Source: Sphingobacteriaceae bacterium
Lineage (GTDB): Bacteria > Bacteroidota > Bacteroidia > UBA7662
Direction of reading: 5' to 3'
NCBI GenBank assembly: GCA_030682795.1
Contig: JAUXNJ010000019.1
Coordinates: 94,627 to 158,626, forward strand
DNA length: 64,000 bases
Below the pieces are notes generated by a model. That model worked only from the letters and a program-made list of their open reading frames with translations. It had not been told where the DNA came from and ran no database searches. Both the position numbers and the translations under genes were made by a program. Below, piece after piece: positions 2,983-50,979 of the stretch; position 1 is the stretch's first letter, and every line of letters begins with the position of its first letter.

Positions 2983-3077
2983 ACAACAGGTGTTTAAAAG
3001 GTTTAATATGTGAATACATATGTAATTGCAAACTAGCCAATTACACATTCACAAAAAAATCTTTGACACCTAAGTTA

Positions 3078-3569
3078 TCAACGGAATAAAAGCAGCACCT
3101 GGCCCTTTTCAACCGTATTTCCGACTTCCACAACCAGCTTATCCACAATGCCTTGGCCAGGAGATTTGAGTACATTCTCCATTTTCATAGACTCGAGCAC
3201 CAAAAGCGGGTCGCCTTTTTGCACTTCTTGTCCAGGCTCGGCCACCAAGCGCAGCACCAGTCCCGGCATCGGCGCCTTCAACTCATTGATTTTCTGCACC
3301 GCCCCAGCATCAATGCCGAGCTTGTTGAGCATGAGGTCGAGTTCGGTTTTGAGCGTTACTTCAAAAGTGCTTTGGTTCACACGCACTTGCAGGTTCTGGC
3401 CTTCTTGGCCGAGCAACTCCACCTGATAGCCCTTGCCATTCACCAGCAAATGCAGGCGGTCGGCATCGAGCCTGATGGCGTCGGGTTGCAGCTTTTTACC
3501 ATTCACCAAAAGCTCGTTTCCTTGCTTCTCGATGCTAAATTTTTTGCCCTGGAGTGTTACTTCAAACAT
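3078..3569 (-). CDS. Biotin/lipoyl-attachment domain protein (BCCP-like, standalone)
   Basis: C-terminal biotinyl domain with the E-S-M-K-M motif (LVLESMKMEN) and hammerhead flanks. Confidence 0.6.
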   Translation of the reverse strand: MFEVTLQGKKFSIEKQGNELLVNGKKLQPDAIRLDADRLHLLVNGKGYQVELLGQEGQNLQVRVNQSTFEVTLKTELDLMLNKLGIDAGAVQKINELKAPMPGLVLRLVAEPGQEVQKGDPLLVLESMKMENVLKSPGQGIVDKLVVEVGNTVEKGQVLLLFR

Positions 3570-3646: not shown

Positions 3647-6100
3647 ATGTATAAACATCGACTCCTTTTCGTACCAGTCTTGGCTCTTTTGCTCGGCTGT
3701 AACAGCAATAAAGCCATTGTAGAAGTGGCTGAACCCGTTCAACCCGAAAAATACGTTCCCCATGTGCACGACGACTACCGGGCGAGTCGTCCGCTCGACA
3801 TGAAAATGCTGCATACCAAGCTCTACCTCAAGCCCGACTTTAGCAAAGCCTGGATGTATGGCACGGCCTACCTCACCGTTACACCACACTTTTATCCATC
3901 TCGGAAAATTAGTCTGGATGCCAAAGGCTTCCAAATAAACCGCGTGGAGCTGGTGGGCAGCGACTTCTTCAAGCCCTTGCAATACCAATACGACGGCAAG
4001 CAACTGCACATTGAGCTCGACCATACCTACAGCGCTGGGGTAAAAGTGCAATTGCTCATTGATTACATTGCCAAGCCCAACGAACTCAAGGATGTAAACG
4101 GCAGCAGTGCCATTCAGGGGGCAAAAGGCCTCTATTTTATCAATCCCGATGGCGCCGACAGCACCAAGCCCGTGCAACTCTGGACCCAAGGTGAAACCGA
4201 AAGCAATTCTTGCTGGTACCCCACCATCGACGCACCCAACCAAAAAACTTCCCAGGAAATTTACCTGACCGTAGATACGAGCTTCGTGACTTTGTCGAAT
4301 GGCGAGCTGGTATACAGCACCGACAATGGCGACGGCACCCGCACGGACTATTGGGAGCAAAAGTTGCAGCACGCACCCTACCTTACCATGCTCGCCGTGG
4401 GCAAGTTTCACGTGGCCCGCGAAAAATGGCGTGGCAAAGAAGTATCGTACTATGTAGAGCCCGAATTTGCTGCAACCGCCGCCAAAACCTATCCCAATAC
4501 CGTAGAAATGCTGGAGTTTTACAGCAATTTGTTGGGGGTGCCGTATCCTTGGGACAAATACGCACAAATTTCGGTACGCGATTATGTATCGGGTGCGATG
4601 GAAAACACCGGCGCTGTAATTTTTGGCGAATGGGCCCAGCGCACCGAGCGCGAACTGCTCGATGGCAGCTCAGAGAGCACCGTGGCCCACGAAATGTTCC
4701 ACCATTGGTTTGGCGATTTGGTGACTGCCGAAAGCTGGAGCAACCTCGCCATCAACGAAAGTTTCGCTACCTATGGCTCTTACCTGTGGGATGAGCATAA
4801 ATACGGCGCCATGGAGGCCGACCGTGGCTTGTATGGCAACCTCAACGGCTATCTCAGTGAATCGAAGCGCAAGCAGGTAGATTTGGTGCGCTTTTATTAC
4901 GAAGACAAAGAGGAGATGTTTGATAGCCATTCCTACGCCAAAGGCAGTCGCATTTTACACATGCTGCGCAAGGAAGTGGGCGACAAAGCCTTTTTTGCCT
5001 CCCTCAAACTCTTCCTAACCCGCCATGCCCATCAAGCCGTAGAAATACAACAGCTGCGTTTGGCTTTTGAAGAAGTAACGGGCCGCGACCTCAACTGGTT
5101 TTTCAACCAGTGGTTTTATGCCAAGGGCCATCCGGTGCTCGACTTTAACTACGGCTACGATGCCGAAACGAGCGAAATTGTGCTCAAAATCACCCAAAAG
5201 AAATCGGGTGAAGGCGTGCCTTTGTACCGTTTGCCGATGCGCGTGGACATTTACACCGCGGATAGCAAGACCACCCAAGCCATTGTGCTGAGTCGTGAAT
5301 CGCAGGAATTCCGCTTTAGAAGCGAGCGGCCCTTGCTGGTGAATGCCGATGCTGACAAAATGCTGCTTTGCGAAAAAACCGAAAACAAAACCCGCGAGCA
5401 GTACCTCGTGCAGTTCCAACGGGCGCCGTTGTTTGTAGACCAATACGAGGCGTTGATGTATTTGCGCAACCTCAAAACCGATCAACAGGCCCGCAGCAGC
5501 TTTATGGATGCCCTGCAGCACGAGTTTTGGTTCATGCGCCAATATGCCATCCAACAATTCGACTTTAGCGATTGGAAAAAAGATGCCAATCTTTTGGTAT
5601 TGCTGCAAAAACTCGCCAAAAGCGACCCCAACAGCTCGGTGCGTGCCGCAGCGGTAGCCAAATTAGGCGAAGTAGATGCCTTGGCTTACGGTCCGTTTTT
5701 CTTAGAAGTACTCACCCAAGACAGCTCTTTCCGCGTGATTGGCGCCGCTTTGCCGCTGTATGCCAAAACCGATTCGGTAAAAGTAATGGACATTGCGCGC
5801 AGCCTCGAGCCACACCGTTCGGTGCGCAACCAAGTGCTCGAAATTTACGCAGCTTACGGCGATGCCAGCATGGCCGACTTCTTCGAAAGCAGCTTTGCCT
5901 CGGCACAAGGCTGGGGCAAGGTAGCCGTGCTGCAGCGTTACAGCCAGCTGGCGCTCCGCCTCGACAACGACGCCCTCACCACCAAAGCCTTGGCCTTTAT
6001 GAAGAGCGTTCCGAGTCGCAGCAACAACGTTTATCTCTCGCGTATCGCCTCCCAGGAAAGCACCAAATTGGCGGCTTTGTTACCACCGGCTGAGTACTAG
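3647..6100 (+). CDS. M1-family zinc aminopeptidase (aminopeptidase N-like) lipoprotein
   Basis: GAMEN motif, HEMFHHW (HEXXH) followed by NESFATY glutamate. Lipoprotein signal LLGC. HEAT-like C-terminal domain. Confidence 0.8.
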   Translation: MYKHRLLFVPVLALLLGCNSNKAIVEVAEPVQPEKYVPHVHDDYRASRPLDMKMLHTKLYLKPDFSKAWMYGTAYLTVTPHFYPSRKISLDAKGFQINRVELVGSDFFKPLQYQYDGKQLHIELDHTYSAGVKVQLLIDYIAKPNELKDVNGSSAIQGAKGLYFINPDGADSTKPVQLWTQGETESNSCWYPTIDAPNQKTSQEIYLTVDTSFVTLSNGELVYSTDNGDGTRTDYWEQKLQHAPYLTMLAVGKFHVAREKWRGKEVSYYVEPEFAATAAKTYPNTVEMLEFYSNLLGVPYPWDKYAQISVRDYVSGAMENTGAVIFGEWAQRTERELLDGSSESTVAHEMFHHWFGDLVTAESWSNLAINESFATYGSYLWDEHKYGAMEADRGLYGNLNGYLSESKRKQVDLVRFYYEDKEEMFDSHSYAKGSRILHMLRKEVGDKAFFASLKLFLTRHAHQAVEIQQLRLAFEEVTGRDLNWFFNQWFYAKGHPVLDFNYGYDAETSEIVLKITQKKSGEGVPLYRLPMRVDIYTADSKTTQAIVLSRESQEFRFRSERPLLVNADADKMLLCEKTENKTREQYLVQFQRAPLFVDQYEALMYLRNLKTDQQARSSFMDALQHEFWFMRQYAIQQFDFSDWKKDANLLVLLQKLAKSDPNSSVRAAAVAKLGEVDALAYGPFFLEVLTQDSSFRVIGAALPLYAKTDSVKVMDIARSLEPHRSVRNQVLEIYAAYGDASMADFFESSFASAQGWGKVAVLQRYSQLALRLDNDALTTKALAFMKSVPSRSNNVYLSRIASQESTKLAALLPPAEY

Positions 6101-13225: not shown

Positions 13226-14374
13226 TTGATCCACACCTCCATCAAGCGCATTGCCTCTTTGCAAAAGCTGTTCAACACAGCTGTGGCCAGCTCCTTTCCA
13301 ATGGTTAGCTACCGCCTGCCTGGTGCCGCGGAGCCCGAAAGCTGCTTGCAGCTCGACGAGCAGCCCTTGTTTTGGAGCGAAGGGGCGGCAGATGGCTTTG
13401 TTGTAGCGCCTTTCGACTTTCCCAATACCGCAGCCCGCTGGTTGCGGCGCGATTTGGCCTTTACCGGTTTTCAGTTTGACCCTGCCCAAGCCCGTACGGG
13501 TATGCTGCACACTGGGCAATTACTTCAGCTTTCGGCTTTTTACGAGCAATTGGGAGAAACAACTGCGCAAGAATGGTCGGCTGTAACGCTTGACGCGGGG
13601 AAAACCGTTTCGCAAGCCGACTACCTGGTGCAGGTGCAGGCAGCCTTAAGCGCCATTGCTAGGGGAACCATGCAAAAAATAGTGCTCTCACGGGTAAAGC
13701 AAGTGCCTTTGGCACCCGATGCCCATCCCGCCCAGCTGTTCGAAAAGCTCTGTAGGGCTTATCCACAAGCTTTTGTAAGTCTGGTAAGCGTACCTGGTCT
13801 CGGCATTTGGCTCGGGGCCTCGCCCGAATTGCTGCTCAAAAGCGATGGTGAAGCTTTCGAAACCATGTCGTTGGCTGGTACCCGGTCGGCGACTGGTGAA
13901 ATGCAGCCCTGGACCGACAAAGAAATGCGGGAGCAGTCCGTGGTAACCGACTACATCCGCGAAAAACTCAGTGCGGCAGGCTTAGCAGTAGCTGTTTCGC
14001 CACAAGAAACCGTGCAAGCAGGACAGGTTTTTCACTTGCGCAACCTCATCAGCGCCCGCGGCCACGCCAGTCATTTTGCCTTGGTGCAGGCTTTGCACCC
14101 CACTCCGGCGGTCTGTGGCCTTCCCGTTGATGCAGCACGCAACTACCTGCAGTTCCACGAAGCCCACCAAAGGGGTTTGTACGGTGGCTTCCTTGGCCCG
14201 GTGGATGCCCAAGGTCAGGCCCAGCTCTATGTAAATTTGCGTTCGATGGAACTTCACAAGGGCTCCGCGAGCTTGTATTTAGGTGGAGGCATTGTGGCCG
14301 GCTCGGTACCAACGGCCGAATGGGAAGAAACCGAGCACAAAGCTGCCACATTACTGCGTATCTTGCAGCACTGA
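13226..14374 (+). CDS. menF: Isochorismate synthase (menaquinone pathway)
   Basis: Chorismate-binding C-terminal signature (GGGIVAGSVPTAEWEETEHKA). Synteny with menD and menB. Confidence 0.7.
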   Translation: MIHTSIKRIASLQKLFNTAVASSFPMVSYRLPGAAEPESCLQLDEQPLFWSEGAADGFVVAPFDFPNTAARWLRRDLAFTGFQFDPAQARTGMLHTGQLLQLSAFYEQLGETTAQEWSAVTLDAGKTVSQADYLVQVQAALSAIARGTMQKIVLSRVKQVPLAPDAHPAQLFEKLCRAYPQAFVSLVSVPGLGIWLGASPELLLKSDGEAFETMSLAGTRSATGEMQPWTDKEMREQSVVTDYIREKLSAAGLAVAVSPQETVQAGQVFHLRNLISARGHASHFALVQALHPTPAVCGLPVDAARNYLQFHEAHQRGLYGGFLGPVDAQGQAQLYVNLRSMELHKGSASLYLGGGIVAGSVPTAEWEETEHKAATLLRILQH

Positions 14375-14390
14375 TACGCTTTTTGAAAGC

Positions 14391-16048
14391 ATGCCCCAGC
14401 ACGACAAACAACATTTGAGCGATTTACTGTACTTGCTGCAGCAATACGGCCTGCAACAGGCGGTACTTTGTCCCGGCTCCCGGTCTGCTCCCCTTACCCT
14501 CGCCTTTGCGCGGCAAAACAGCATCCACTGCAGCACAGCGGTAGATGAACGCTCCGCTGCCTACATTGCGCTTGGCAAGAGTTTGGCTACGGCGCAGCCC
14601 ACCGCTTTGGTGTGTACTTCGGGGACTGCCCTGCTCAATTTTGCGCCTGCAGTGGCCGAGGCCTTTTACTTGCGAGTGCCGCTATTGATTTTATCGGCCG
14701 ACCGGCCCGCAGCTTGGGTGGATCAGTTAGATGGACAAACCATTCGGCAAGACCAAATACTCGCTAAACATACTGTTTTTAGTGCCACTTTGCCCGAACG
14801 CAGTGATACCGATATCGACCGCTGGCATGCCGCAAGGCTTGTGCAAGAGGCTTGGAACAAAGCGATTCAGCTGCGCGGACCAGTGCACTTAAACATTCCA
14901 TTGCGCGAACCGCTGTATGAGTCATTGCCCACCAGTACTGACTTGCCCAAGGCCTTGCAATGGCAAGCAGCCTTGCCGCAAATGCAATTACCTGGCACTA
15001 TACTCGAACGTTGGCTGCAGGCCAAAAGCATTTTGCTGGTTGGTGGCCAACAAGCCCCCAATACCCAACTACAGGCCGCGCTCAACCAGGTGTTAAAAGA
15101 CCCACGGGTGGTGCTTTTAAGCGAGCCTGTAAACAACTTACAAGGCGGCATCGAGCAACATGAAGCCATTTGCGCCACAAAACCTGCCCAATTACAGGCC
15201 GATTTATTGATCAGCTGGGGCGAGCAAGTGGTGGCTAAGCAGCTTAAAATTTGGCTACGCAGCTATCCCGCCACCGAACATTGGCGGCTTGGGGTAGATG
15301 GCCAAATAGCCGACCCCTACCGGCAATTGCAAATGCTCGTGGCCATGGATCCAACTACTCTTTTCAGTGGAGTAGCACAGTTACCAGCAGGATCAGGCCA
15401 TTACCAGCAGCTTTGGAAGCAGGCTGAGGCCAGCATCCACCATAAAATTCAGCCCTTTTTTGAGGCGCTACCTTTTGGAGATTTAAAAGTGATGTTCCGA
15501 ATGGCACAAAAGCTCGGTGCTACCGATGCTTTGCACCTCGGCAACAGCACCCCAATACGCTATTGGCAGATGTTACCGCAGCCGCCGGCACTGGCTTGGT
15601 TGCATGCGAACCGCGGCACCAGCGGCATCGACGGTGTGAGTAGTACAGCATTGGGCTTTGCCAGCGTGGTGGACCATACCACTTGGTTGATAACGGGTGA
15701 GCTCAGTTTTGTGTACGACCTCAATGCCTTCAGCAGCAGCGAGCGGCCCAAAAACCTCAAAATCCTTGTGATCAACAATGGCGGTGGCGATATTTTTAGA
15801 CTCATCGACGGTCCGAGCACCCAGCCCGAGCGTGAAACTTACTTTGCCACCCCGCGCAACATCGATGTGCAGTCACTGGCCAAAGGCTGGGGCGTCACTT
15901 CATACTTGGCTACCGATGAAGTATCTTTGCAAAATGGCTTGCAAGCCCTGCGCGATAGCCAAGAAACCGCCATTTTAGAAGTCCGCACCGAACCTTCGGT
16001 GAACCAAAACGTTTATAAAGCTTACCAACAACTCATAAAAAGCAACGC

Positions 16049-16052
<4 letters not shown>
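14391..16052 (+). CDS. menD: 2-succinyl-5-enolpyruvyl-6-hydroxy-3-cyclohexene-1-carboxylate synthase
   Basis: TPP-enzyme architecture and men synteny. Start moved to ATG 14391 (MPQHDK...) just after the menF stop. Confidence 0.7.
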
Positions 16053-16873
<821 letters not shown>

Positions 16874-19263: not shown

Positions 19264-19509
19264 ATGGGGGCTATAGAGCTGAAATCTGACTTGCACAAAA
19301 TGCTCGACCAAATCGAGAATGAACAGTTGCTCAGAACCATTTATGACTTTTTGAAGGAGCGGACTAACGCCCCTGAGGGTGCCATTTGGGAGTCATTGAC
19401 GGAGGAGCAAAAAAAAGAGGTTCAATTGTCTTATGAAGAATCTCAAGTAGAAGAGCCATTAATAGCTTGGGAGGAGCTTAAGAAAAAGCACCCATGGAAG
19501 TCCTCGTAA
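19264..19509 (+). CDS. Putative antitoxin (ParD/addiction-module component-like)
   Basis: 81-aa acidic protein whose 3' end overlaps the downstream ParE-like gene by 16 nt. Confidence 0.4.
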   Translation: MGAIELKSDLHKMLDQIENEQLLRTIYDFLKERTNAPEGAIWESLTEEQKKEVQLSYEESQVEEPLIAWEELKKKHPWKSS

Positions 19510-19778
19510 CACCGAGAGCAGCGCAAAAATTTGAAGCGCTTGTTGCTTTTATTACCCATAAATGGGGTGAAAAAGCGGCTTCAGCTTTCATTCAAAATAT
19601 GGATGCTGCATTTTCCCAGCTTCAATCCTATCCTTTACTGGGAGCAATAGAGCATCTCGACATCAGAGGGCTTCAGGTATCTGCCCAAACAAGGATATTC
19701 TATCGAATACGAAATAATAAAATCATCATTATTTCTTTTTTCGACGTCAAACAGCACCCTAAAAAGCGGCTTGGTTAG
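19494..19778 (+). CDS. ParE/RelE-family toxin
   Basis: 94 aa. The C-terminal IFYRIRNNKIIIISFFDVKQH resembles the ParE beta-sheet core. Confidence 0.5.
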   Translation: MEVLVTPRAAQKFEALVAFITHKWGEKAASAFIQNMDAAFSQLQSYPLLGAIEHLDIRGLQVSAQTRIFYRIRNNKIIIISFFDVKQHPKKRLG

Positions 19779-21480: not shown

Positions 21481-21789
21481 TCAATTATACTTTTCGGGCC
21501 GAAGCACCTCAACGGTCTGCACAAAGGCCACAATGCCATATTTTTCGAAATACTGATCACTCAGCAACTCCATGAGTTGTGCTGCCTTGGTTTCATTGGT
21601 CAGGGTATCGATGCGAATGTTGCGTCCTTCCCAACCGCTGAAATGCCGTACATGCAGTCCTTCACCCGCAACTTCTGCCATGGTATAGCCTTGAATGCCA
21701 CAAGCCTTTAAGTCGGAGATCAGTCTTTCTGCCAAAGCGTCCAGTGCAATGATGGTGATCATTTTCACCGGTTTCAAATGGTTATTCAT
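21481..21789 (-). CDS. PII-like signalling protein (SbtB-like)
   Basis: 102 aa with PII fold pattern (MITIIALDA...GIQGYTMAEVAGEG...). ATGA overlap with the upstream permease gene. Confidence 0.5.
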   Translation of the reverse strand: MNNHLKPVKMITIIALDALAERLISDLKACGIQGYTMAEVAGEGLHVRHFSGWEGRNIRIDTLTNETKAAQLMELLSDQYFEKYGIVAFVQTVEVLRPEKYN

Positions 21790-22754
21790 GCGTATATGAT
21801 TTGAGCGATGTAAAGATATAAGGGAAGGCCGATGGTTACATTAAAAGGAAAGGCAATGGCCAAACTTCCGGTAAGGTAGAGGGTTGGATTGGCTTCTGGG
21901 ATGGCAATGCGCACCGCTGCTGGCGCCGCAATGTAAGAGGCACTGGCACACAGCAAGCCAAACAAGGTAGCTCCACCCATAGAGAGGCCTGCCCACTGCG
22001 CCATAAACACCCCCATGGTGGCATGCAACACAGGCATCACCAGGCCGTAGCCCAAGAGAAAAAACCCCACCTTTTTTAATTCAAACAAACGACGACCGGC
22101 AACCAGACCCACTTCTAACAAAAACAAACAGAGCACGCCGCGAAACAAGCCATCGTACATGGGCGCTACCTGCTCAAAACCTTCCTTTTGGGTAATTAGC
22201 CCTATACCTAGGCCGCCCAGAAGCAAAATGGTGCCTTTGTTGGTGAACAGTTCGTGTAGCACCTTTCCCATGCCTTGCTGACTTTGCGGTGCATGGCGGC
22301 GCGCCAGCCAAATGGAGAGTAAAATGGCTGGTACTTCCATGATGGCGAGGATAGCCGGCATAAAGCCTTCGAAAGAGATGCTCATGAGCTCCAGAAAAGC
22401 CAAACCTTCGGAGAAGGTCACTGCCGAAACCGAGCCGAAATGGGCGGCGATAGCGGCCGCATTGGCGTTGTCGAACTTACCGAGCTTGGTAAGGATCACA
22501 AAAGACACCGCCGCAATGATCAAGCAGGCGGCAATGGCAGCAAGCAGGGGCTTGTAGAAATCGGCGAAGGCCACATCCGAGAGCTTTACCCCGCCCTTCA
22601 GGCCAATGGCAAATAAGAGATAGATGGTTAAGCCCATGTACATGCCCTCGGGAAATTTCAAATCACTTCGGAGCAGGGTGGCTAAGATGCCGAGTAAAAA
22701 GGCCAGGACCATTGGAGAGGTCAAACTGGCAAACAGCGCGCTTCCTAGTTCCAT
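21786..22754 (-). CDS. SbtA-like (DUF897) permease, putative Na+-dependent bicarbonate transporter
   Basis: 322-aa, about 10-TM protein with internal duplication. Paired with the PII-like gene and a beta-carbonic anhydrase, as in SbtA/SbtB systems. Confidence 0.45.
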   Translation of the reverse strand: MELGSALFASLTSPMVLAFLLGILATLLRSDLKFPEGMYMGLTIYLLFAIGLKGGVKLSDVAFADFYKPLLAAIAACLIIAAVSFVILTKLGKFDNANAAAIAAHFGSVSAVTFSEGLAFLELMSISFEGFMPAILAIMEVPAILLSIWLARRHAPQSQQGMGKVLHELFTNKGTILLLGGLGIGLITQKEGFEQVAPMYDGLFRGVLCLFLLEVGLVAGRRLFELKKVGFFLLGYGLVMPVLHATMGVFMAQWAGLSMGGATLFGLLCASASYIAAPAAVRIAIPEANPTLYLTGSLAIAFPFNVTIGLPLYLYIAQIIYA

Positions 22755-22756
22755 GG

Positions 22757-23422
22757 TTAAGGCTTTGGTAAGGTTGCCAAATAGTTTTCAGGCAAAAACT
22801 CAACTTTGCCCGATTCGAGGTGGTAAACGGCGCCCACAATTTTTGTTTGTCCACTTGCCACCGCTTTCGACAACACCGGTTCGAGGTTCTGTAGCTGGGC
22901 TACTTGCATGGCTACATTTACTTTCACAGCGTTATCAATGCGATTTCCCTTTAAGTGAGCACTTGCTTGGGCAGCAGGTTTGATGGCATTGATCAAGGTT
23001 ACGATATGCCCGGGTACATCTGGCACCTTACAGGCAGCGGCTACCGCCCCGCATTCGGTATGCCCCAAAACCACAATCAACTTGGCACCGAGTACAGCAT
23101 TGGCAAACTCAATGCTTCCCCAAGAAGCATGGGTAGATACCTGTCCCGCGGTACGTACGATGAAAATGTCGCCTAAGCCTTGGTCGAAAATAATCTCGTT
23201 CGGCACCCGTGAATCGGAGCAGCCTACCACAATGGCAAAGGGGTTTTGTCCAGTGGCCACTTCCTTTACCCGCTTAGGACTTTGGTTGGGCCGTACCGAT
23301 TGGCCTTTGTAAAAGCGTTCGTTGCCTGCCTTTAGCAAGACTAAGGCCGAATCGGCACTCATTTGGGCGTAAGCGCAGAGGCTTAAGCTAAACCCTAAAA
23401 ATGTCAATAGCACGTATTTCAT
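22757..23422 (-). CDS. Beta-class carbonic anhydrase, secreted
   Basis: Beta-CA zinc ligands (CSDSRV ... HTECGAV). Signal peptide begins at the second Met (MKYVLLTFLGFSLSLCAYA). Confidence 0.75.
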   Translation of the reverse strand: MKYVLLTFLGFSLSLCAYAQMSADSALVLLKAGNERFYKGQSVRPNQSPKRVKEVATGQNPFAIVVGCSDSRVPNEIIFDQGLGDIFIVRTAGQVSTHASWGSIEFANAVLGAKLIVVLGHTECGAVAAACKVPDVPGHIVTLINAIKPAAQASAHLKGNRIDNAVKVNVAMQVAQLQNLEPVLSKAVASGQTKIVGAVYHLESGKVEFLPENYLATLPKP

Positions 23423-23509
23423 AGCTGGTTTTTTTAAACGCCACAAACCTACGGCGGCCCAAAACATATATTTCATTTATGTTTTCTATATTTGGCATAA
23501 GATTTTATT

Positions 23510-24451
23510 ATGAACTACACCTTGCATCAACTGCTGATCCTGGCGAAAGTGGCGGAGTGCCAAAGCATCACCCGCGCGGCCGAAGCCTTGCATTTATCGC
23601 AGCCTGCTGTTTCAGTTCAGCTAAAAAATTTGCAAGAACAATTCAAAATCCCTTTGTTTCACATTCGGGCCAAAAGGGTATTTATGACCGATTTTGGCAA
23701 TGAATTGGTACAAACCACCCTTGAAATTGCAGCACAACTCGAAAGTTTCAACTATCGGGCAAAGGGAGCCAGCGGCAAACTCAGCGGGAAGCTCAGCATC
23801 AGTATTGTATCGACTGGCAAATACATCATGCCCTATTTTTTGCAGTCCTTTCTAGCACAAAATCCAGAAGTTGAATTACGCATGGATGTGACCAACAAGG
23901 CAGGCGTCATCAGCGCACTCGATCATAGCGATGCCGAGCTGGCCTTGGTATCGGCCTTGCCGCGCCAATTAAAAATAGCTGAATTGCCCTTGCTGCAAAA
24001 TCACCTCTTTTGGGTGGTAGGACCACAGTTTCAAATCGAAAAAGCCAGCTATTCGCCAGAGATCCTGAAAACAATGCCCCTCATTTTTAGAGAAGCTGGT
24101 TCAGCTACGCGCGCAGTAATGGAACAGGTGTGTGATCGAAAAAAAGTAGGCGGCACCAAAGAGCTGGTGCTCACCACGAATGAAGCGATTAAACAAGCGA
24201 TCATGGCGGGATTAGGCTGTTCGGTTATGCCGCTTATTGGACTCAAACACGAACTCGCTAGCGGTGATTTACAACTGCTGCCGGTTAAAGGCTTGCCGGT
24301 AGTTACACAATGGCGACTTATTTGGTTGAGTACGCGTCCCCTATCGCCCGTAGCTGCGGCTTACCTGGCCCACCTGCAAAACAACCGGGAGCAGGTGTAC
24401 GAGGAGCATTTTGCATGGACCAGTGCGTACCTGCACCCGGTCAAACTTTAA
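23510..24451 (+). CDS. LysR-family transcriptional regulator (divergent from the CA-SbtA-PII operon)
   Basis: N-terminal LysR HTH (ITRAAEALHLSQPAVSVQLKNLQ) and C-terminal substrate-binding domain. Confidence 0.8.
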   Translation: MNYTLHQLLILAKVAECQSITRAAEALHLSQPAVSVQLKNLQEQFKIPLFHIRAKRVFMTDFGNELVQTTLEIAAQLESFNYRAKGASGKLSGKLSISIVSTGKYIMPYFLQSFLAQNPEVELRMDVTNKAGVISALDHSDAELALVSALPRQLKIAELPLLQNHLFWVVGPQFQIEKASYSPEILKTMPLIFREAGSATRAVMEQVCDRKKVGGTKELVLTTNEAIKQAIMAGLGCSVMPLIGLKHELASGDLQLLPVKGLPVVTQWRLIWLSTRPLSPVAAAYLAHLQNNREQVYEEHFAWTSAYLHPVKL

Positions 24452-25915: not shown

Positions 25916-27418
25916 TTATGGCAGAAGCCGCACTTGTGCTTTTTCGGCAATGCTGAGGGGGAGCGAAAACGACTGTTCTTCAGAACTTAGTTCTAAGTCC
26001 CTTTCGCTGCGCGCTCGCAATTGCAACACCTGGTTGGGCGAGATACCGAGCTTCCACAAGGCAGAAGTCACCGCGGCGCTCTTTTGGGTACTCAGCACCA
26101 TCACCTGTTGGCCCGGCTTCACCTCTGCTAACAACACGGTTGTTTTGCTCCGCTGTGGGATGGGCGAACCATGTGGGTCGGTGGTAGGGAAACCTAAGCG
26201 CGCTTCTACTTCTTGCAAAAACACCTCGGGCAAGCGGTGCTCAAATTGCTCGGCTTGACCGTGAATTTGATTGCTTTGCAAGCCCATTTCCTGCACCAAA
26301 TAACTTTCCCAGATGCGGTGGGCGCGAATGAGTTGGTAGGCCCGTTCCAAACCGGCGGCACTGATTTGAATATTGTTTTGTTGCACCGGCTCCAGCCATT
26401 TCCGGCGCTGCAATGCCAGCAGTTTGCGTCGCAGCTGCCGCTCATTAAGTCCAAAGGCAGCTGCGGTTTCGGGCAAAGACTTCAACCCTTTTTCCTGCAG
26501 TTTTACCAGGGCTTTCAAAACATCTTCTAATGCCTGTAATTTCTGCCTCTTCGCCTTGCGAATACGTAGCAACAGCAATCCCTTCTTAGGAGAAAAGAGC
26601 ATGGCCAATAAATAAAATGCAGTGGCCACGAGGGTCATGGCCGGACCCGGAGTGGTTTCCCAAATGATGGCGAATATTAACCCCATACTGGCCGAAAGCA
26701 CCCCTACCAAAGCCGATAAGGCCAGCACCACCGGCAAGCGATTGCTGAGCAAGAGGGCGGTGGAAGCGGGAATGATGAGCATGGCTACTACCAAAATCAC
26801 CCCAACCGATTGCAAGGAGGCCACCACGGCAAAACTCAACAACATCATCATAAAATAATGCATGAGGTTGGCATTGATGCCTGTTGTGGTAGCCATAACC
26901 GCCTGAAAAGTGGTGACGAAAAAATATCTGTAAAAAGCCAAAATGCACAGCAGCGTATAAACCATGATGAGGCCGGTGAGCCAAATGTCCTGATCGGCAA
27001 TGCCCAACACATTGCCAAAAAGGAAATCCTTCATATCGAGGTGCACACCTTCTTGTCGCGTTACCGCCGAAATGCCGATGATGCCCAAGGCAAACATGGC
27101 CGAAAACACAATGCCAATGGCCGCGTCTTCCTTGGTTTTAACGTTACGCTGCAGCCAGGTGATGCTGAGGGCGGCGAGCAATCCTGCCACCACCGAACCA
27201 GTAAAGAAGGCAAAAATGCTGTGGCCCGCAATGAGGAAGCCCACCACCACCCCGGGCAAGATGGCGTGCGAGAGCGCATCACCGATGAGCGACATGTTCC
27301 GCAACACGATGAAAACGCCCAGGAGCCCGCAGGTAATGCCCACGAGCACCGAAGCAAGCAAGGCCCGCTGGGCATAGGCATAGCCAAATACGTCGGAAAG
27401 TTCTTGCCAGTGATTCAT
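25916..27418 (-). CDS. Fusion protein: metal (Zn/Mn/Fe) ABC transporter permease (ZnuB/MntB/TroC-like) plus C-terminal DtxR-family repressor with FeoA domain
   Basis: N-terminal about 280 aa is a multi-TM ZnuB-like permease (GDALSHAILPG). The C-terminal about 210 aa has a winged HTH, the DtxR motif RAHRIWESYL, DPHGSPIP and an FeoA/SH3-like tail. Confidence 0.7.
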   Translation of the reverse strand: MNHWQELSDVFGYAYAQRALLASVLVGITCGLLGVFIVLRNMSLIGDALSHAILPGVVVGFLIAGHSIFAFFTGSVVAGLLAALSITWLQRNVKTKEDAAIGIVFSAMFALGIIGISAVTRQEGVHLDMKDFLFGNVLGIADQDIWLTGLIMVYTLLCILAFYRYFFVTTFQAVMATTTGINANLMHYFMMMLLSFAVVASLQSVGVILVVAMLIIPASTALLLSNRLPVVLALSALVGVLSASMGLIFAIIWETTPGPAMTLVATAFYLLAMLFSPKKGLLLLRIRKAKRQKLQALEDVLKALVKLQEKGLKSLPETAAAFGLNERQLRRKLLALQRRKWLEPVQQNNIQISAAGLERAYQLIRAHRIWESYLVQEMGLQSNQIHGQAEQFEHRLPEVFLQEVEARLGFPTTDPHGSPIPQRSKTTVLLAEVKPGQQVMVLSTQKSAAVTSALWKLGISPNQVLQLRARSERDLELSSEEQSFSLPLSIAEKAQVRLLP

Positions 27419-29181
27419 CGGCTGCGGTTGAATTGTTGGGCCTGGTCGTACATGGGCTGGGTGCCGCTAAAGGTGCGCAGGATGTTGGCTTCGGTGACCA
27501 CCTCGGCCGGCGATCCAAAGGCCACCAAGCGGCGGTTGATCATAATCACCTGGTCGAAATAGGCTTGCGCCTTGCTTAAATCGTGGTGAATCATGACCAC
27601 GGTTTTGCCCTCGGCCACCAGGCGGCGGAGAATCTGAATGATTTTTTCCTCGGTGGTCACGTCTACCCCTACAAAAGGCTCGTCGAGGAAATACAGCTGG
27701 GCCTCTTGCGCCAGCGCCCGGGCCAAAAACACCCGCTGCTGCTGTCCACCCGAGAGCTCGCCAATTTGCTTGTGCAGCAGTTGCTCGAGTTCCAACTCCT
27801 GAATGTGCTGCAGTGCTTTGGCTTTGTCGGTGCTGTTGAGCGACTGAAACGGCCGTTTGTGGGGGTAGCGACCCATGAGCACGAGGTCGTACACGGTAGC
27901 GGGGAAGGTCCAGTCGATTTCCTCCTTCTGCGGCACATAGGCAATGTGGGTTTGCACCGCTTCTACCGGCAAGCCGCCGATGGTAATGGCGCCACGGTCG
28001 GTTTTGAGCAGGCCCAAAATGCTTTTGAAGAGGGTGCTTTTGCCGGAGCCGTTCGGACCAATGAGTCCGTACAACTTGCCCTGCTCGAGCTGCAAATCAA
28101 AGTGGTTGAGGATAACTTTATCGTCGTACGCCACAGTGAGGCCGTTGATGTGGATGGGGTGCTGTGCCGGCAAATCGCTGCTGTTCTTCCGCTGTATGCG
28201 CACGGCCAGTACGGCAAAGGCCAAGGCAAAAAAGCCGGCAATGATCAGCAGCATGAGCAAATCGGTACGGCGACTGTTGGCCGCGCCGCTGCCTTGGAGA
28301 CCTTCGAGCAGGGTGTCGGCATTGTGGCGGAGCATGCTCAAATAAGTGTCGGCGCCGCTGCCCTTGGGCCCCATGCTGTCGGCATACATACTGCCGCCAA
28401 TACGGATGCCGGCGTCGGCAGCTACTTGCTGCAGCAGCTTGGGGTTGATGGTGCTTTCGATGAAAAGGGCCGGTAAATTTTCGGCCTCGATGGTGCGGAT
28501 GAGGTCATGGAGGTCGCTTACCCGCACTTCGGCATCGGTGGTGGTGCCAAGTACCGACAATACCCGCATGCCATAGCGGTTGCCAAAGTAGCGAAAGGCG
28601 TCGTGGGTAGTGGCAATGATGCGGTGTTCGGCGGGAATTTGGGCGATGCGACCTTCGATATAGGTGTGGAGGGAAAGCAATTGCTGGTCGTAAGCCTCAA
28701 AATTGCGTTCTATATCGGCGGCATGGGCGGGCAACAAGCGCTGCAAACCGTTGGCCATGTTGCGAATGTAGATGCGGCCGAGCAGCGGGTCCATCCAGGC
28801 ATGCGGGTCGTAGCTGTTGGCGTGCTCAGCACTGCCAATGGGCGTGATGCCGTCGCTGGCGGTCACCAAAAGCGCTTTGCCCCCGGCCTGGTCGATGAGC
28901 TTCTTGAGCCAGCCTTCGAGGTTGAGACCATTTTCAATGATCAGATCCGCCTCAGCCAGCAGCCGAGCATCGCCGGGAACGGCTTCGTAGATGTGCGGAT
29001 CGGCCCCTAGCGGCAGCAAGGATATTACTTCGCAATGCTCCCCTGCCAACTGCTGTGCCATGTCTGCCAAAAAGCTGGTGGTGGCTACCACTTTCACCAC
29101 TGGAGCCTGTGCCGCAGTGCTGCTGGAGCTTAAAACGCCCACCATCAAAAGCAGAAAAAACAATGTGCTACGGCCTTGCAT
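27415..29181 (-). CDS. Fusion protein: metal ABC substrate-binding protein (ZnuA/TroA-like) - TM anchor - ABC ATPase (ZnuC-like)
   Basis: Signal peptide. TroA-like SBP motifs (LLPLGADPHIYEAVPGD; HDAFRYFGNRYG). One TM helix. Then Walker A GPNGSGKST, signature LSGGQQQRV and Walker B LYFLDEP. ATGA overlap with the permease-DtxR gene. Confidence 0.7.
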   Translation of the reverse strand: MQGRSTLFFLLLMVGVLSSSSTAAQAPVVKVVATTSFLADMAQQLAGEHCEVISLLPLGADPHIYEAVPGDARLLAEADLIIENGLNLEGWLKKLIDQAGGKALLVTASDGITPIGSAEHANSYDPHAWMDPLLGRIYIRNMANGLQRLLPAHAADIERNFEAYDQQLLSLHTYIEGRIAQIPAEHRIIATTHDAFRYFGNRYGMRVLSVLGTTTDAEVRVSDLHDLIRTIEAENLPALFIESTINPKLLQQVAADAGIRIGGSMYADSMGPKGSGADTYLSMLRHNADTLLEGLQGSGAANSRRTDLLMLLIIAGFFALAFAVLAVRIQRKNSSDLPAQHPIHINGLTVAYDDKVILNHFDLQLEQGKLYGLIGPNGSGKSTLFKSILGLLKTDRGAITIGGLPVEAVQTHIAYVPQKEEIDWTFPATVYDLVLMGRYPHKRPFQSLNSTDKAKALQHIQELELEQLLHKQIGELSGGQQQRVFLARALAQEAQLYFLDEPFVGVDVTTEEKIIQILRRLVAEGKTVVMIHHDLSKAQAYFDQVIMINRRLVAFGSPAEVVTEANILRTFSGTQPMYDQAQQFNRSR

Positions 29182-45750: not shown

Positions 45751-46152
45751 ATGAAAAAAGCCCTCCTACTGCAACTCTCCCTCGCCCTGGTGCTGTTGAG
45801 CAGCTGCGCTAAAAACATCCATGTTAACTACCAAAGCGACTCGGCAAATACAGGCAAGGTGGTGCTAAAACCGGCTGAACCCACCAATCGCACCTATGTA
45901 ACCTTTAACGACAGCTTGCTTGTGAACAAAAAGTACGTGAAGTCGGTAACCATCCACAACGTGCCAAGCGGTGAACACCACGTGCATTATACGTCGAACA
46001 ACTATGCGTACAAAGAAAAAATAGACGGTAAGATGACCGTTAATGTGGACAACAACCGCGTGATTACCAAGCTGATTGAAGTGCCTCCTTACAGTGCGGG
46101 TTATTGGATTGGACTGCTCATTAGCTTGCCTATTTTGGTGTTTGTGCTTTAG
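45751..46152 (+). CDS. Lipoprotein with C-terminal TM anchor, unknown function
   Basis: Lipobox LSSCA; AT-richer codon usage. Confidence 0.35.
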   Translation: MKKALLLQLSLALVLLSSCAKNIHVNYQSDSANTGKVVLKPAEPTNRTYVTFNDSLLVNKKYVKSVTIHNVPSGEHHVHYTSNNYAYKEKIDGKMTVNVDNNRVITKLIEVPPYSAGYWIGLLISLPILVFVL

Positions 46153-46304
46153 GTAAAAGCTGAGACAGCTTTCCGCTTTGTTACCTAGGCAAGCCCTTAG
46201 CTGCGCAAACTTGCCCCTAAATGTCAGATCTGTGGCTCGCATCAGCGAGTTACCGCAAGCACTTATACCGCAATAGCACTTTTCATTCCATTTATCAGAA
46301 TACC

Positions 46305-46934: not shown

Positions 46935-46976
46935 TTGCTAGGGGCCCGTTTTTTAAACAACAGCCTGTAGCCATGT

Positions 46977-49622: not shown

Positions 49623-49650
49623 GGCTTATTGGCTGCCGGTTTGGTGGAAT

Positions 49651-50931: not shown

Positions 50932-50979
50932 TAAACAACAAATCCTTAGTTTTGAAACTAATAGTCCGTTTTAGTTACG

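What the first reader, a model, noticed from the sequence alone, without database searches (positions are those of the whole stretch)
21481..24451. Periplasmic beta-carbonic anhydrase + SbtA-like permease + PII-like protein operon with divergent LysR: putative inorganic-carbon uptake module in a heterotroph
The three minus-strand genes are tightly packed (3-nt gap, then ATGA overlap). The signal-peptide-bearing beta-CA could hydrate CO2 in the periplasm to feed the DUF897/SbtA-like permease, whose partner is a 102-aa PII-fold protein. This mirrors cyanobacterial SbtA/SbtB, where SbtB is a PII-like adenyl-nucleotide/cAMP sensor. The divergent LysR gene would be the CbbR/CmpR-like regulator. Such a combination in Bacteroidota may serve anaplerotic bicarbonate supply.
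Basis: partly seen in the sequence, partly recalled or inferred. Interest (0 to 1): 0.6.

Follow-up and report, generated by a model that had tools for sequence, protein, structure and literature searches.

The report
Bicarbonate-uptake operon in a heterotrophic bacterium
A soil or water Bacteroidota bacterium carries a four-gene module (an exported carbonic anhydrase, an SbtA-type bicarbonate permease, a small PII-type regulator protein and a LysR switch) that looks like a trimmed-down, non-photosynthetic version of the cyanobacterial bicarbonate pump; relatives of the module occur in many heterotrophic phyla, but none has been tested in the lab.

Summary
Three tightly packed minus-strand genes encode a beta-carbonic anhydrase with an N-terminal signal peptide, a full-length Sbt_1/PF05982 permease and a 102-aa PII-like protein. 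A LysR gene is transcribed divergently. The LysR protein is closest to the cyanobacterial CO2-response regulators NdhR/CcmR and CmpR.

In the 80 best genome loci (about 14 phyla), a PII-like gene follows the permease in 59. An adjacent beta-CA occurs in 13, in different gene orders, nearly always with a Sec or Tat export signal. purK-purE (a bicarbonate-using step) is sometimes adjacent.

Differences from cyanobacterial SbtA/SbtB:
- no long cytoplasmic 5-6 loop;
- a T-loop 5 residues shorter;
- no redox C-terminal loop;
- only 2 of 4 modelled HCO3- ligands kept.

Most likely function is bicarbonate capture and import for anabolic carboxylations. Transport itself is untested, and one heterotroph SbtA-like protein failed in E. 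coli. I rate it a new variant of a known kind, of moderate interest.

The parts
21481..21789 (-). PII-like (SbtB-like, TTHA0516-type) protein, 102 aa; start overlaps the permease stop by 4 nt (ATGA)
   Evidence: ORF; PF00543 65 bits; best PDB TTHA0516 (3e-21), then SbtB7001 (1e-7); AF2 model pLDDT 84.9, Foldseek top 50 all TTHA0516/SbtB/CPII; T-loop 12 aa versus 17 in SbtB; NCBI calls it 'hypothetical protein' MDP2188307.1
21786..22754 (-). SbtA-like permease (Sbt_1/PF05982, TC 2.A.83 type), 322 aa, 5+5 inverted-repeat fold, short 5-6 loop
   Evidence: PF05982 387.7 bits, profile positions 1-308 of 308; Synechocystis SbtA E 1e-33 in two blocks that skip SbtA residues ~160-212; AF2 pLDDT 83.7, TM 0.82-0.91 to 7egl/8zor/7cye, next fold ASBT TM ~0.6; NCBI name 'sodium-dependent bicarbonate transport family permease'
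22757..23422 (-). Beta-carbonic anhydrase, 221 aa from M19 (the ORF is open up to 23476); Zn/catalytic motifs CSDSR (C68, D70, R72) and HTEC (H121, C124) in 221-aa numbering
   Evidence: PF00484 136.7 bits; best PDB M. tuberculosis beta-CA 2a5v/1ym3 (2.6e-37); motif positions; NCBI protein is 221 aa
23366..23422 (-). Predicted Sec signal peptide of the CA (MKYVLLTFLGFSLSLCAYA, cleavage after AYA)
   Evidence: hydropathy (11-residue window up to 2.0) and sequence inspection; orthologous CAs in other loci also carry Sec or Tat signals. No SignalP was available, so this is a heuristic call
23423..23509 (.). 87-bp divergent control region between the CA and lysR genes
   Evidence: sequence holds -7-like boxes in both directions and two overlapping dyads
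23444..23451 (-). Bacteroidetes-type -7 box TAGGTTTG (consensus TAnnTTTG) for the CA-permease-PII operon
   Evidence: Read from sequence. The consensus comes from established knowledge of Bacteroidetes promoters and was not tested here
23487..23494 (+). Bacteroidetes-type -7 box TATATTTG for lysR
   Evidence: Read from sequence; inference
23461..23485 (.). Inverted repeat AAAACATA-N9-TATGTTTT, which contains a T-N11-A LysR-box pattern
   Evidence: 11-nt arms, 91% complementary; perfect 8-nt arms
23477..23500 (.). Dyad TTATG-N14-CATAA next to the lysR start, overlapping the lysR -7 box; positionally conserved in five Bacteroidota loci
   Evidence: ungapped alignment of window, L010, L012, L013 and L015 keeps T10, A12-T13-G14 and A27-A28, A30-T31, A33-A34-T35
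23510..24451 (+). LysR-type regulator of the CbbR/NdhR/CmpR subgroup, 313 aa, divergent from the operon
   Evidence: HTH_1 plus LysR_substrate; best NCBIfam CbbR (190.9 bits, below the equivalog cut-off of 450); best PDB NdhR/CcmR 5y2v (1e-42) and CmpR 5z49 (2e-26); orthologues (E 1e-94 to 1e-99) divergent from the same operon in L010, L012, L013, L015

Best explanation
The locus is an inorganic-carbon acquisition module of a heterotrophic Bacteroidota bacterium (a Sphingobacteriaceae MAG).

Proposed mechanism:
1. The beta-carbonic anhydrase is exported to the periplasm. There it hydrates CO2, both environmental CO2 and respiratory CO2 leaking out of the cell, to HCO3-.
2. The SbtA-like elevator-type permease imports that HCO3-, probably with Na+.
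3. [quoted passage not shown] It thereby gates or plugs the permease according to energy or carbon status.
4. The divergent CbbR/NdhR-like LysR regulator binds the dyads in the 87-bp intergenic region and adjusts operon and own expression to carbon status.
5. The imported bicarbonate feeds anabolic carboxylations: PurK, acetyl-CoA, pyruvate or PEP carboxylases, carbamoyl-phosphate synthase.

Shown here by computation: gene structure, family and fold membership, catalytic residues, and recurrent synteny.

Inferred: export of the CA, bicarbonate and Na+ as substrates, PII-permease binding, and the regulator's signal.
For: Operon anatomy:
- 2-nt gap and 4-nt overlap between the three genes.
- No convincing internal terminator.

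Family and fold:
-.
- CA catalytic motifs CxDxR and HxxC are present.

Guilt by association, in the best 80 of at least 596 matching stretches from the one-genome-per-species collection (about 14 phyla):
- A PII-like gene sits directly after the permease in 59 of 80 loci.
- A beta-CA is adjacent on the same strand in 13 of 80, against roughly 0.1% expected for a gene present once or twice per genome. The orders differ: CA-Sbt(-PII) in Bacteroidota and Leptospiraceae; Sbt-PII-CA or Sbt-CA in Verrucomicrobiota, Planctomycetota and Balneolaceae.
- 15 of the 16 CAs linked to the permease gene in these loci start with an export signal. It is Sec-like in Bacteroidota, Leptospira and Verrucomicrobiota, and twin-arginine RRxxLG in Planctomycetota.
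- purK-purE (PurK consumes HCO3-) lies directly upstream on the same strand in L065 and L069 and divergently in Thermus L079.

Regulator:
- Closest to NdhR/CcmR and CmpR.
- A conserved dyad sits in the intergenic region.

Published context:
- Cyanobacterial SbtA1 and SbtA2 share only ~25% identity, yet both import HCO3- and both pair with a PII-like SbtB (PMC13187645). Function can therefore persist at the 28% identity seen here.
- The adenine-pocket residues of SbtB7001 (bioRxiv 10.1101/762807) are largely kept: I14, G34, T36, N57, L63, V87, R48.
Against: - No transport data exist for this clade. The only heterotroph SbtA-like protein tested, from Labrenzia alexandrii, gave no H14CO3- uptake in E. 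coli (PMC4275256).
- Of the four docked and mutagenised HCO3- ligands of Synechocystis SbtA (S114, Y140, S324, S327; PMC8352866), only S114 and S324 are kept (S110, S273). Y140 is L or V and S327 is A throughout the clade, and D325 is an invariant Y.
- The T-loop is 5 residues shorter than in SbtB, and T-loop arginine R43 is H46. Docking may therefore differ.
- The CA is absent from most loci, even among close relatives (L087, L088), so it is an accessory part.
- LysR linkage is confined to some Bacteroidota.
- CA export was judged by eye and hydropathy only.
- Heterotrophy of the whole organism was not checked beyond the 64-kb window.
Confidence: 0.7

Rival explanations
1. The permease belongs to the SBT fold family but carries a different anion or solute. 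The neighbouring CA and PII-like protein then serve a general pH/CO2 or energy-sensing role, not bicarbonate import.
For: - Two of four modelled HCO3- ligands are replaced across the whole clade, and D325 becomes Y.
- Identity to SbtA1 is only 28%.
- Labrenzia SbtA-like was negative for uptake.
- Most loci have no CA.
Against: - The only recurrent enzyme partners are bicarbonate-related: an exported beta-CA in different gene orders and purK-purE.
- The partner PII groups structurally with the carbon-related SbtB and CPII proteins.
- The regulator is NdhR/CmpR-like.
- SbtA1 and SbtA2 are equally divergent from each other and both carry HCO3- (PMC13187645).
- The published HCO3- site is a docking model, not an observed ligand (PMC8352866).
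Confidence: 0.12
2. The module works for pH or ion homeostasis, not carbon supply. The permease moves HCO3- (and Na+) outward or bidirectionally, and the periplasmic CA buffers the periplasm, for example in alkaline or CO2-rich habitats.
For: - SbtA belongs to the CPA/AT superfamily, which also holds Na+/H+ antiporters (Foldseek tail hits NapA and KefC).
- SbtB has been proposed to act as a valve that prevents back-leak through SbtA, which implies the carrier is reversible (bioRxiv 10.1101/2023.08.10.552651).
- Some loci carry a different LysR protein whose N-terminus looks NhaR-like by eye (L063); this resemblance is my own reading and was not tested.
Against: - All characterised family members are net importers driven by ion gradients (PMC8352866, PMC13187645).
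- Linkage to purK-purE points to a demand for bicarbonate.
- The window's regulator resembles low-CO2-response regulators.
Confidence: 0.1
3. The host is a cryptic autotroph or mixotroph, and the operon is part of a true CO2-concentrating mechanism that feeds RuBisCO or another fixation pathway.
For: - The regulator is CbbR-like.
- SbtA-family genes are enriched in autotroph genomes (PMC10880623).
- Some related loci come from phototrophic lineages: Chloroflexus, Roseiflexus, Chloroherpetonaceae.
Against: - No RuBisCO, carboxysome or other fixation genes in the 64-kb window.
- The source is a Sphingobacteriaceae MAG.
- Most related loci belong to typically heterotrophic groups: Verrucomicrobiota, Planctomycetota, Leptospira, Bdellovibrionota, Thermus.
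Confidence: 0.04

Closest known systems
Cyanobacterial SbtA/SbtB (SbtA1 of Synechocystis PCC 6803, PDB 7CYE/7CYF/7EGK/7EGL; SbtA2/SbtB2 of marine Synechococcus)
   Same: - Same Pfam family and the same 5+5 elevator fold (TM 0.82-0.91).
- Same gene order: permease, then a PII-like gene.
- The Na+-site region (FGS...S) and two HCO3- ligands are kept.
- The PII partner keeps the adenine pocket.
- Control by a CbbR-family LysR regulator.
   Different: - 28% identity.
- No ~50-aa cytoplasmic 5-6 loop.
- Y140 to L, S327 to A, D325 to Y.
- T-loop 12 instead of 17 residues.
- No CGPxGC redox loop.
- An exported beta-CA is built into the operon.
- The host is not photosynthetic.
- No functional data.
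TTHA0516 of Thermus thermophilus HB8 (PDB 2CZ4, structural-genomics 'putative PII-like signaling protein')
   Same: - Closest solved relative of the 102-aa protein (E 3e-21, 39% identity, TM 0.82).
- Same short T-loop with the W-E-G-x-N-I-R motif.
- Its 87%-identical orthologue in a Thermus MAG lies 4 nt after an SbtA-like gene.
   Different: - Thermus has no adjacent CA; purK-purE are the neighbours.
- I found no functional study of it: a full-text search for TTHA0516 returned nothing.
CPII, the PII-like protein associated with carboxysome/DAB loci in Thiomonas intermedia (PDB 5D4L-5D4P)
   Same: PII-like fold with similar structural score (TM ~0.8). It is a carbon-related PII protein that binds ADP/AMP and bicarbonate (PDB titles).
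   Different: It partners a different transporter type (DAB/CHC-type CO2 hydration complex) in a chemoautotroph. Sequence match is weak (E 5e-3).
NdhR/CcmR and CmpR, LysR regulators of the cyanobacterial CO2-concentrating mechanism
   Same: Best solved homologues of the window's LysR protein (1e-42 and 2e-26). They regulate sbtA and cmp bicarbonate-transporter genes.
   Different: The window protein scores below NCBIfam's CbbR equivalog cut-off (190.9 versus 450). Its effector and operator are unknown. The candidate operator here is TTATG-N14-CATAA and AAAACATA-N9-TATGTTTT.
Inorganic-carbon uptake systems of heterotrophs (DAB/MpsAB of Staphylococcus aureus, Vibrio cholerae, Bacillus anthracis) and periplasmic CAs that support bicarbonate uptake (Rhodopseudomonas palustris alpha-CA)
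   Same: - The same physiological logic: supplying HCO3- for anabolism at air-level CO2 (PMC6689103, abstract).
- An extracellular CA assisting uptake of inorganic carbon (PMC10880623).
   Different: Unrelated proteins: DAB is a vectorial CA coupled to a proton-pumping subunit, and the R. palustris enzyme is an alpha-CA. Neither has a PII partner in the same operon.

Membership tests
SBT family (Pfam PF05982 Sbt_1 / TC 2.A.83, SbtA-type bicarbonate transporters) | Full-length match to the family profile above the curated threshold | tested here: met
   387.7 bits versus cut-off 27, profile positions 1-308 of 308
SBT family (Pfam PF05982 Sbt_1 / TC 2.A.83, SbtA-type bicarbonate transporters) | Ten-helix 5+5 inverted-repeat fold with broken TM4/TM9 crossover, as in PDB 7CYE | tested here: met
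   AF2 model pLDDT 83.7, with broken helices at 96-107/111-123 and 259-270/276-284. Foldseek TM 0.82-0.91 to 7egl/8zor/7cye; next fold ASBT TM ~0.6
SBT family (Pfam PF05982 Sbt_1 / TC 2.A.83, SbtA-type bicarbonate transporters) | Na+ site at the crossover (main-chain O of F110, G111, A112, A320, S322 in Synechocystis SbtA) | tested here: inconclusive
   Aligned residues are F106, G107, S108, C269, S271. G, S and S are invariant in 83 clade members. The ligands are backbone atoms, so sequence alone cannot decide
SBT family (Pfam PF05982 Sbt_1 / TC 2.A.83, SbtA-type bicarbonate transporters) | HCO3- ligands S114, Y140, S324, S327 (docked and mutagenised, PMC8352866) | tested here: inconclusive
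   S110 and S273 are kept and invariant. Y140 becomes L/V and S327 becomes A in all 83 sequences. An invariant Y274 replaces D325. So 2 of 4 are kept; the published site is a docking model
SBT family (Pfam PF05982 Sbt_1 / TC 2.A.83, SbtA-type bicarbonate transporters) | Na+-dependent HCO3- uptake activity | not testable with these tools
   Needs H14CO3- uptake or complementation of CA-free E. coli. The only tested heterotroph homologue (Labrenzia) was negative
SBT family (Pfam PF05982 Sbt_1 / TC 2.A.83, SbtA-type bicarbonate transporters) | Long disordered cytoplasmic loop between TM5 and TM6 (cyanobacterial SbtA1, residues ~166-212) | tested here: not met
   The alignment jumps from query 156-163 to SbtA 160-212; the loop region is 20-42 aa across the clade. 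The loop is reported as not functionally critical (PMC13187645), so this separates a sub-type and does not exclude family membership
SbtB (PII-like regulator of SbtA) | Trimeric PII ferredoxin-like fold (beta-alpha-beta x2) with a T-loop | tested here: met
   PF00543 65 bits. AF2 elements E6-16, H17-29, E36-40, E57-64, H66-84, E87-95, with a flexible 41-56 segment. Top 50 Foldseek hits are TTHA0516, SbtB or CPII. The trimer state was not modelled
SbtB (PII-like regulator of SbtA) | Encoded immediately downstream of, and co-transcribed with, the sbtA-type gene | tested here: met
   4-nt ATGA overlap; same arrangement in 59 of 80 species loci
SbtB (PII-like regulator of SbtA) | Adenine-nucleotide pocket residues (SbtB7001: I11, S30, G31, T33, N59, L65, I90; T-loop S42, R43, R46) | tested here: inconclusive
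   Kept: I14, G34, T36, N57, L63, V87, R48. Changed: S30 to Q33, S42 to L45, R43 to H46. Binding was not measured
SbtB (PII-like regulator of SbtA) | T-loop of SbtB length (~17 residues between GxG and N-I-K) that inserts ~20 A into the SbtA cleft | tested here: not met
   12 residues here and 11-13 in all 50 non-cyanobacterial PII-likes aligned (38 with 12, 12 with 13, 1 with 11, TTHA0516 included), against 17 in SbtB6803 and SbtB7001
SbtB (PII-like regulator of SbtA) | C-terminal CGPxGC redox R-loop | tested here: not met
   The protein ends ...VLRPEKYN with no cysteines. The motif is also absent from many genuine SbtBs such as SbtB7001 (bioRxiv 10.1101/762807)
Beta-class carbonic anhydrase (PF00484) | Zn ligands Cys-His-Cys plus the Asp-Arg dyad (CxDxR ... 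HxxC) | tested here: met
   CSDSR at 68-72 and HTEC at 121-124 of the 221-aa protein; PF00484 136.7 bits; M. tuberculosis beta-CA 2a5v E 2.6e-37
Beta-class carbonic anhydrase (PF00484) | Extracytoplasmic location (signal peptide) | tested here: inconclusive
   An n-h-c pattern MK / YVLLTFLGFSLSL / CAYA|Q and hydropathy up to 2.0. 15 of the 16 CAs linked to the permease gene in other loci show Sec- or Tat-type leaders by inspection. No dedicated predictor or experiment was available
CbbR/NdhR/CmpR subgroup of LysR-type regulators | HTH_1 plus LysR_substrate architecture, divergent from the target operon, with a T-N11-A-type dyad in the intergenic region | tested here: met
CbbR/NdhR/CmpR subgroup of LysR-type regulators | Score above NCBIfam's CbbR equivalog cut-off | tested here: not met
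   190.9 bits versus 450. It is the best-scoring model, and NdhR and CmpR are the best PDB hits, so the protein is a relative and not an equivalog

The most novel reading that the evidence does not exclude
Exported beta-CA + short-loop SbtA-like permease + short-T-loop PII (TTHA0516 type) may form a distinct, horizontally mobile 'periplasmic CO2 trap'. It would be used by many heterotrophic phyla (Bacteroidota, Leptospiraceae, Verrucomicrobiota, Planctomycetota).

In this reading, respiratory CO2 escaping the cytoplasm is re-hydrated outside the inner membrane and pumped back as bicarbonate. That would replace or outperform a cytoplasmic CA and allow growth at very low CO2.

The TTHA0516-type PII proteins would then be a separate carbon-sensing PII subfamily with their own docking mode and possibly their own ligand (for example bicarbonate, as in CPII).
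Probability: 0.3. Interest if true: 0.6.

Novelty: new variant of a known kind. Interest (0 to 1): 0.45.

Why it matters
[quoted passage not shown] Here at least ~600 matching stretches turned up in a one-genome-per-species collection, mostly from heterotrophs and usually with a PII partner.
- If the module imports bicarbonate, it is a widespread and so far uncharacterised route by which heterotrophs secure HCO3- for anabolism at air-level CO2. That bears on dark CO2 fixation budgets and on CO2-dependent growth, including in Leptospira.
- It would offer compact SbtA/SbtB variants (no long loop, no redox loop), with a matched external CA, for engineering bicarbonate uptake.
- It would give a function to the orphan structure 2CZ4 and to proteins that PGAP currently names 'hypothetical'.

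Tried and rejected
- Canonical nitrogen PII (GlnB/GlnK) reading of the small protein: rejected. GlnK and GlnB score E 0.05-0.7 against 3e-21 for TTHA0516, and none appears among the top 50 structural hits.
- CA start at 23476 (239 aa): rejected in favour of M19.
- Regulatory RNA in the locus: none found in Rfam at E <= 0.1.
- Internal terminators: one weak consensus hit inside the permease ORF, fewer than in shuffles.
- Alpha-CA next to SbtA-like genes in the CA-less loci: the PROSITE-type signature found none. Gamma-CA was not screened.
- Second CA, PII or Sbt paralogue in the window: none.
- Autotrophy genes in the window: none among 30 ORFs scanned.
- Literature: nine full-text searches found no description of a CA-SbtA-PII operon in heterotrophs and nothing on TTHA0516. 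Two probably relevant subscription papers are not in the library: Selim & Alva 2024, which I tried to fetch and could not, and Scott et al. 2020, which I know of only from memory. Prior mention therefore cannot be excluded.
- PII homologue search by word index returned only 19 close relatives. The wider picture came from HMM searches on the fetched loci.

Full report
**1. What is in the sequence**

- PII-like protein, 21481-21789(-), 102 aa.
- Permease, 21786-22754(-), 322 aa.
- Beta-carbonic anhydrase, 22757-23476(-).
- LysR-type regulator, 23510-24451(+), 313 aa.

The permease stop and the PII start share ATGA. The CA stop and the permease ATG are separated by 2 nt (TAA-CC-ATG), not 3.

The CA ORF is over-extended, and the real start is M19 (ATG at 23422). 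Three lines of evidence support this:
- NCBI's own protein is 221 aa (MDP2188309.1).
- Orthologues are 221-229 aa.
- A Bacteroidetes-type -7 box (TAGGTTTG, 23444-23451, minus strand) lies inside the extension.

From M19 the protein begins MKYVLLTFLGFSLSLCAYA|QMS. That is a short basic n-region, a 13-residue hydrophobic core (hydropathy up to 2.0) and an A-x-A cleavage motif.

The window comes from a Sphingobacteriaceae MAG. Its other genes are ordinary Bacteroidota content: rlmN, men genes, IF-2, T9SS cargo and PorZ, peptidases, metal ABC transporters. No carbon-fixation genes are present.

**2. Family and fold**

Pfam assignments:
- Sbt_1 (PF05982): 387.7 bits over the entire 308-position profile.
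- P-II: 65 bits.
- Pro_CA: 136.7 bits.
- HTH_1 plus LysR_substrate for the regulator.

Permease:
- Against solved structures it matches only Synechocystis SbtA (E 1e-33). The match comes in two blocks that skip SbtA residues ~160-212, the long cytoplasmic 5-6 loop.
- Its AlphaFold model (pLDDT 83.7, pTM 0.85) superposes on five SbtA structures at TM 0.82-0.91 and 27-29% identity. The next fold, ASBT, reaches only TM ~0.6.

PII-like protein:
- Its best sequence matches are TTHA0516 of Thermus thermophilus (PDB 2CZ4, E 3e-21), then SbtB of Cyanobium PCC 7001 (1e-7) and Synechocystis SbtB (1.4e-3). GlnK and GlnB score only 0.05-0.7.
- Its model (pLDDT 84.9) has the beta-alpha-beta-beta-alpha-beta PII topology with a low-confidence T-loop at 41-56.
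- All 50 best Foldseek hits are TTHA0516, SbtB or the carboxysome-associated CPII.

Carbonic anhydrase:
- It carries the CxDxR and HxxC zinc/catalytic motifs.
- It is most similar to M. tuberculosis beta-CA 2a5v/1ym3.

LysR protein:
- Its best NCBIfam model is CbbR, at 190.9 bits, below the equivalog cut-off of 450.
- Its best solved relatives are NdhR/CcmR (5y2v, 1e-42) and CmpR (5z49, 2e-26). These are the two cyanobacterial regulators of inorganic-carbon uptake genes.

**3. How it differs from cyanobacterial SbtA/SbtB**

I used the residues reported for Synechocystis SbtA (PMC8352866).

- Na+ site region: F110/G111/A112/A320/S322 aligns with F106/G107/S108/C269/S271.
- Four docked and mutagenised HCO3- ligands: S114 and S324 are kept (S110, S273). 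Y140 is L136 and S327 is A276.
- Across 83 clade members: S110, S271 and S273 are invariant; position 136 is always L, V or M; position 276 is always A; and D325 is replaced by an invariant Tyr.

The clade therefore has its own fixed crossover motifs, H-[FY]-G-S-V-S and S-A-S-Y-I-A-A-P.

In the PII-like protein:
- The adenine-pocket residues defined for SbtB7001 (bioRxiv 10.1101/762807) are mostly kept: I14, G34, T36, N57, L63, V87, R48.
- S42 and R43 are L45 and H46.
- The T-loop between G-x-G and N-I-[KR] is 12 residues here. It is 11-13 residues in all 50 non-cyanobacterial PII-likes aligned and in TTHA0516, against 17 in both SbtBs.
- There is no C-terminal CGPxGC redox loop.

**4. Is the gene association real? 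Comparative evidence**

The best 80 loci (45-63% identity) come from about 14 phyla. They include Bacteroidota, Rhodothermota-type lineages, Leptospirales, Verrucomicrobiota, Planctomycetota, Deinococcota (including Thermus and Meiothermus), Chloroflexota, Gemmatimonadota, Armatimonadota, Myxococcota, Bdellovibrionota, Actinomycetota, Nitrospirota and a few Proteobacteria.

PII-like partner:
- A PII-like ORF lies directly after the permease in 59 of 80 loci (HMM search).
- One further locus is truncated 75 bp after the permease.

Carbonic anhydrase:
- A beta-CA lies adjacent on the same strand in 13 of 80 loci. It also does in four loci fetched through protein look-ups (L002, L004, L086, L089).
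- The gene orders differ: CA-Sbt-PII or CA-Sbt in Bacteroidota and Leptospiraceae; Sbt-PII-CA or Sbt-CA in Verrucomicrobiota, Planctomycetota and Balneolaceae.
- For a gene present once or a few times per genome, immediate adjacency in ~16% of loci across several phyla is roughly two orders of magnitude above expectation. That estimate is my own and is not corrected for phylogeny.
- 15 of the 16 CAs linked to the permease gene in the other loci (one of them, L009, lies about 2 kb upstream) start with an export signal. The signal is Sec-type or lipoprotein-like in Bacteroidota, Leptospira and Verrucomicrobiota, and twin-arginine (RRxxLG) in Planctomycetota. Only the Balneolaceae enzyme looks cytoplasmic (by inspection).
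- Different gene orders and different export routes leading to the same pairing argue for a functional link between an extracytoplasmic CA and this permease.

Other recurrent neighbours:
- purK-purE, directly upstream on the same strand in L065 and L069 and divergent in Thermus L079, with purE alone seen at the truncated end of L057. PurK consumes HCO3-.
- Small MarR-like regulators.
- LysR genes.

LysR linkage:
- The window's LysR orthologue (E 1e-94 to 1e-99) is divergent from the operon in Cyclobacteriaceae (L010, L013), Chryseolinea (L012) and Flavihumibacter (L015).
- It is absent from other close relatives (L002, L086-L088).

Two further points:
- The TTHA0516 orthologue (87% identity) in a Thermus MAG sits 4 nt after an SbtA-like gene. 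The orphan structure 2CZ4 therefore belongs to this system.
- Permease identity of 60-67% between Bacteroidota and Leptospiraceae, with the same gene order, suggests the cassette has been transferred between phyla.

**5. Control region**

With the corrected CA start, the divergent intergenic region is 87 bp (23423-23509). It contains:
- -7-like boxes in both directions: TAGGTTTG for the operon and TATATTTG at 23487-23494 for lysR.
- An inverted repeat AAAACATA-N9-TATGTTTT at 23461-23485.
- A dyad TTATG-N14-CATAA at 23477-23500 that overlaps the lysR -7 box.

The arms of that second dyad sit at the same distance from the lysR ATG in all five LysR-linked Bacteroidota loci. This fits an autoregulating LysR-type operator. 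The region is AT-rich, however, and part of the conservation could reflect promoter elements, so I treat it as a candidate only. No Rfam family matches the locus.

**6. Mechanism and confidence**

The best-supported reading (about 0.7) is a bicarbonate capture-and-import module:
1. The exported CA converts CO2 to HCO3- in the periplasm.
2. The SbtA-like carrier imports HCO3-, probably with Na+.
3. The PII-like trimer senses adenine nucleotides and gates the carrier through its T-loop.
4. The NdhR/CmpR-like regulator tunes expression.
5. The bicarbonate serves anabolic carboxylations.

Supporting context from the literature:
- SbtA1 and SbtA2 share only ~25% identity, yet both transport HCO3- and both pair with a PII-like protein (PMC13187645).
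- SbtA-family transporters are active in autotrophic Proteobacteria (PMC10880623).
- Heterotrophs are known to need dedicated HCO3- supply systems at air CO2, for example MpsAB (PMC6689103).

Against it:
- There are no transport data for this clade.
- The only heterotroph SbtA-like protein tested (Labrenzia) was negative in E. coli (PMC4275256).
- Half of the modelled HCO3- ligands are replaced.
- The T-loop is shorter.
- The CA is an accessory component, not a fixed one.

Rival readings are a different substrate (0.12), a pH/ion-homeostasis or efflux role (0.10), and part of a true autotrophic CCM (0.04).

**7. Novelty**

The parts are recognisable, and three of the four are already named by PGAP: 'sodium-dependent bicarbonate transport family permease', 'carbonic anhydrase' and 'LysR family transcriptional regulator'. 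The PII-like protein is still called 'hypothetical protein'.

I did not find the following described in the searchable literature:
- an exported-CA + SbtA-like + short-T-loop PII cassette;
- its breadth among heterotrophic phyla;
- its link to the orphan structure 2CZ4.

[quoted passage not shown] Two possibly relevant subscription papers could not be read: Selim & Alva 2024 (not held) and Scott et al. 2020, which I know of only from memory.

I therefore file it as a new variant of a known kind, of moderate interest.

Noticed in passing
window 25916-29181 (-): The metal ABC importer has unusual fusions. One 588-aa protein combines the ZnuA-type binding protein (PF01297) with the ABC ATPase. 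The next, 500-aa protein combines the ABC-3 permease (PF00950) with a DtxR-type Fe_dep_repr_C domain. The two genes overlap by 4 nt.
   Followed up: no
window ~46000-56000: A low-GC islet (GC 0.36-0.45 against ~0.52 elsewhere) looks like an acquired restriction-modification/defence island. It carries an HNH_2 endonuclease (49651-50445), a C5 cytosine methylase (51287-52600), a MutH/Sau3AI-like endonuclease (52518-53978) and a DUF3800 protein (54193-55047).
   Followed up: partly
window 19264-19778 (+): A ParE-family toxin (19494-19778, PF05016, E 5e-10) is preceded by an overlapping 81-aa ORF with no Pfam hit. This is probably a type II toxin-antitoxin pair.
   Followed up: partly
L079:2340-5236 (Thermus sp. 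MAG); L065 and L069 (Verrucomicrobiota): The orthologue of the orphan PDB structure TTHA0516/2CZ4 (87% identity) lies 4 nt after an SbtA-like gene. purK-purE (the HCO3--consuming step of purine synthesis) are divergent neighbours in Thermus and lie directly upstream on the same strand in two Verrucomicrobiota loci.
   Followed up: partly
L009:1163-5278 (Chloroherpetonaceae MAG): This locus has two PII-like ORFs, one at 3017-3319 upstream of the SbtA-like gene and one at 4976-5278 downstream. A signal-peptide beta-CA sits about 2 kb upstream. The stretch between the CA and the first PII-like ORF was not examined.
   Followed up: no
L004/L005 (Leptospira licerasiae) and L089 (Leptospiraceae MAG): Leptospira carries the same CA-permease pair, with 60-67% permease identity to the Bacteroidota protein. 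The PII gene is present in L089 and absent in L. licerasiae. This suggests cassette transfer between phyla and loss of the PII gene in some lineages.
   Followed up: partly
L086:4857-5357 (-): In a 75%-identical relative, a 166-aa Biotin_lipoyl protein is encoded convergently just after the CA-Sbt-PII operon. By size and domain it may be a biotin carboxyl carrier protein, but that is my guess. It is a single observation and may be coincidence.
   Followed up: no
window 13226-16873 (+): Three consecutive genes match chorismate-binding, TPP-enzyme and enoyl-CoA hydratase families. From the domain order I read them as the menaquinone genes MenF, MenD and MenB. They lie upstream of the locus and appear unrelated to it.
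   Followed up: no
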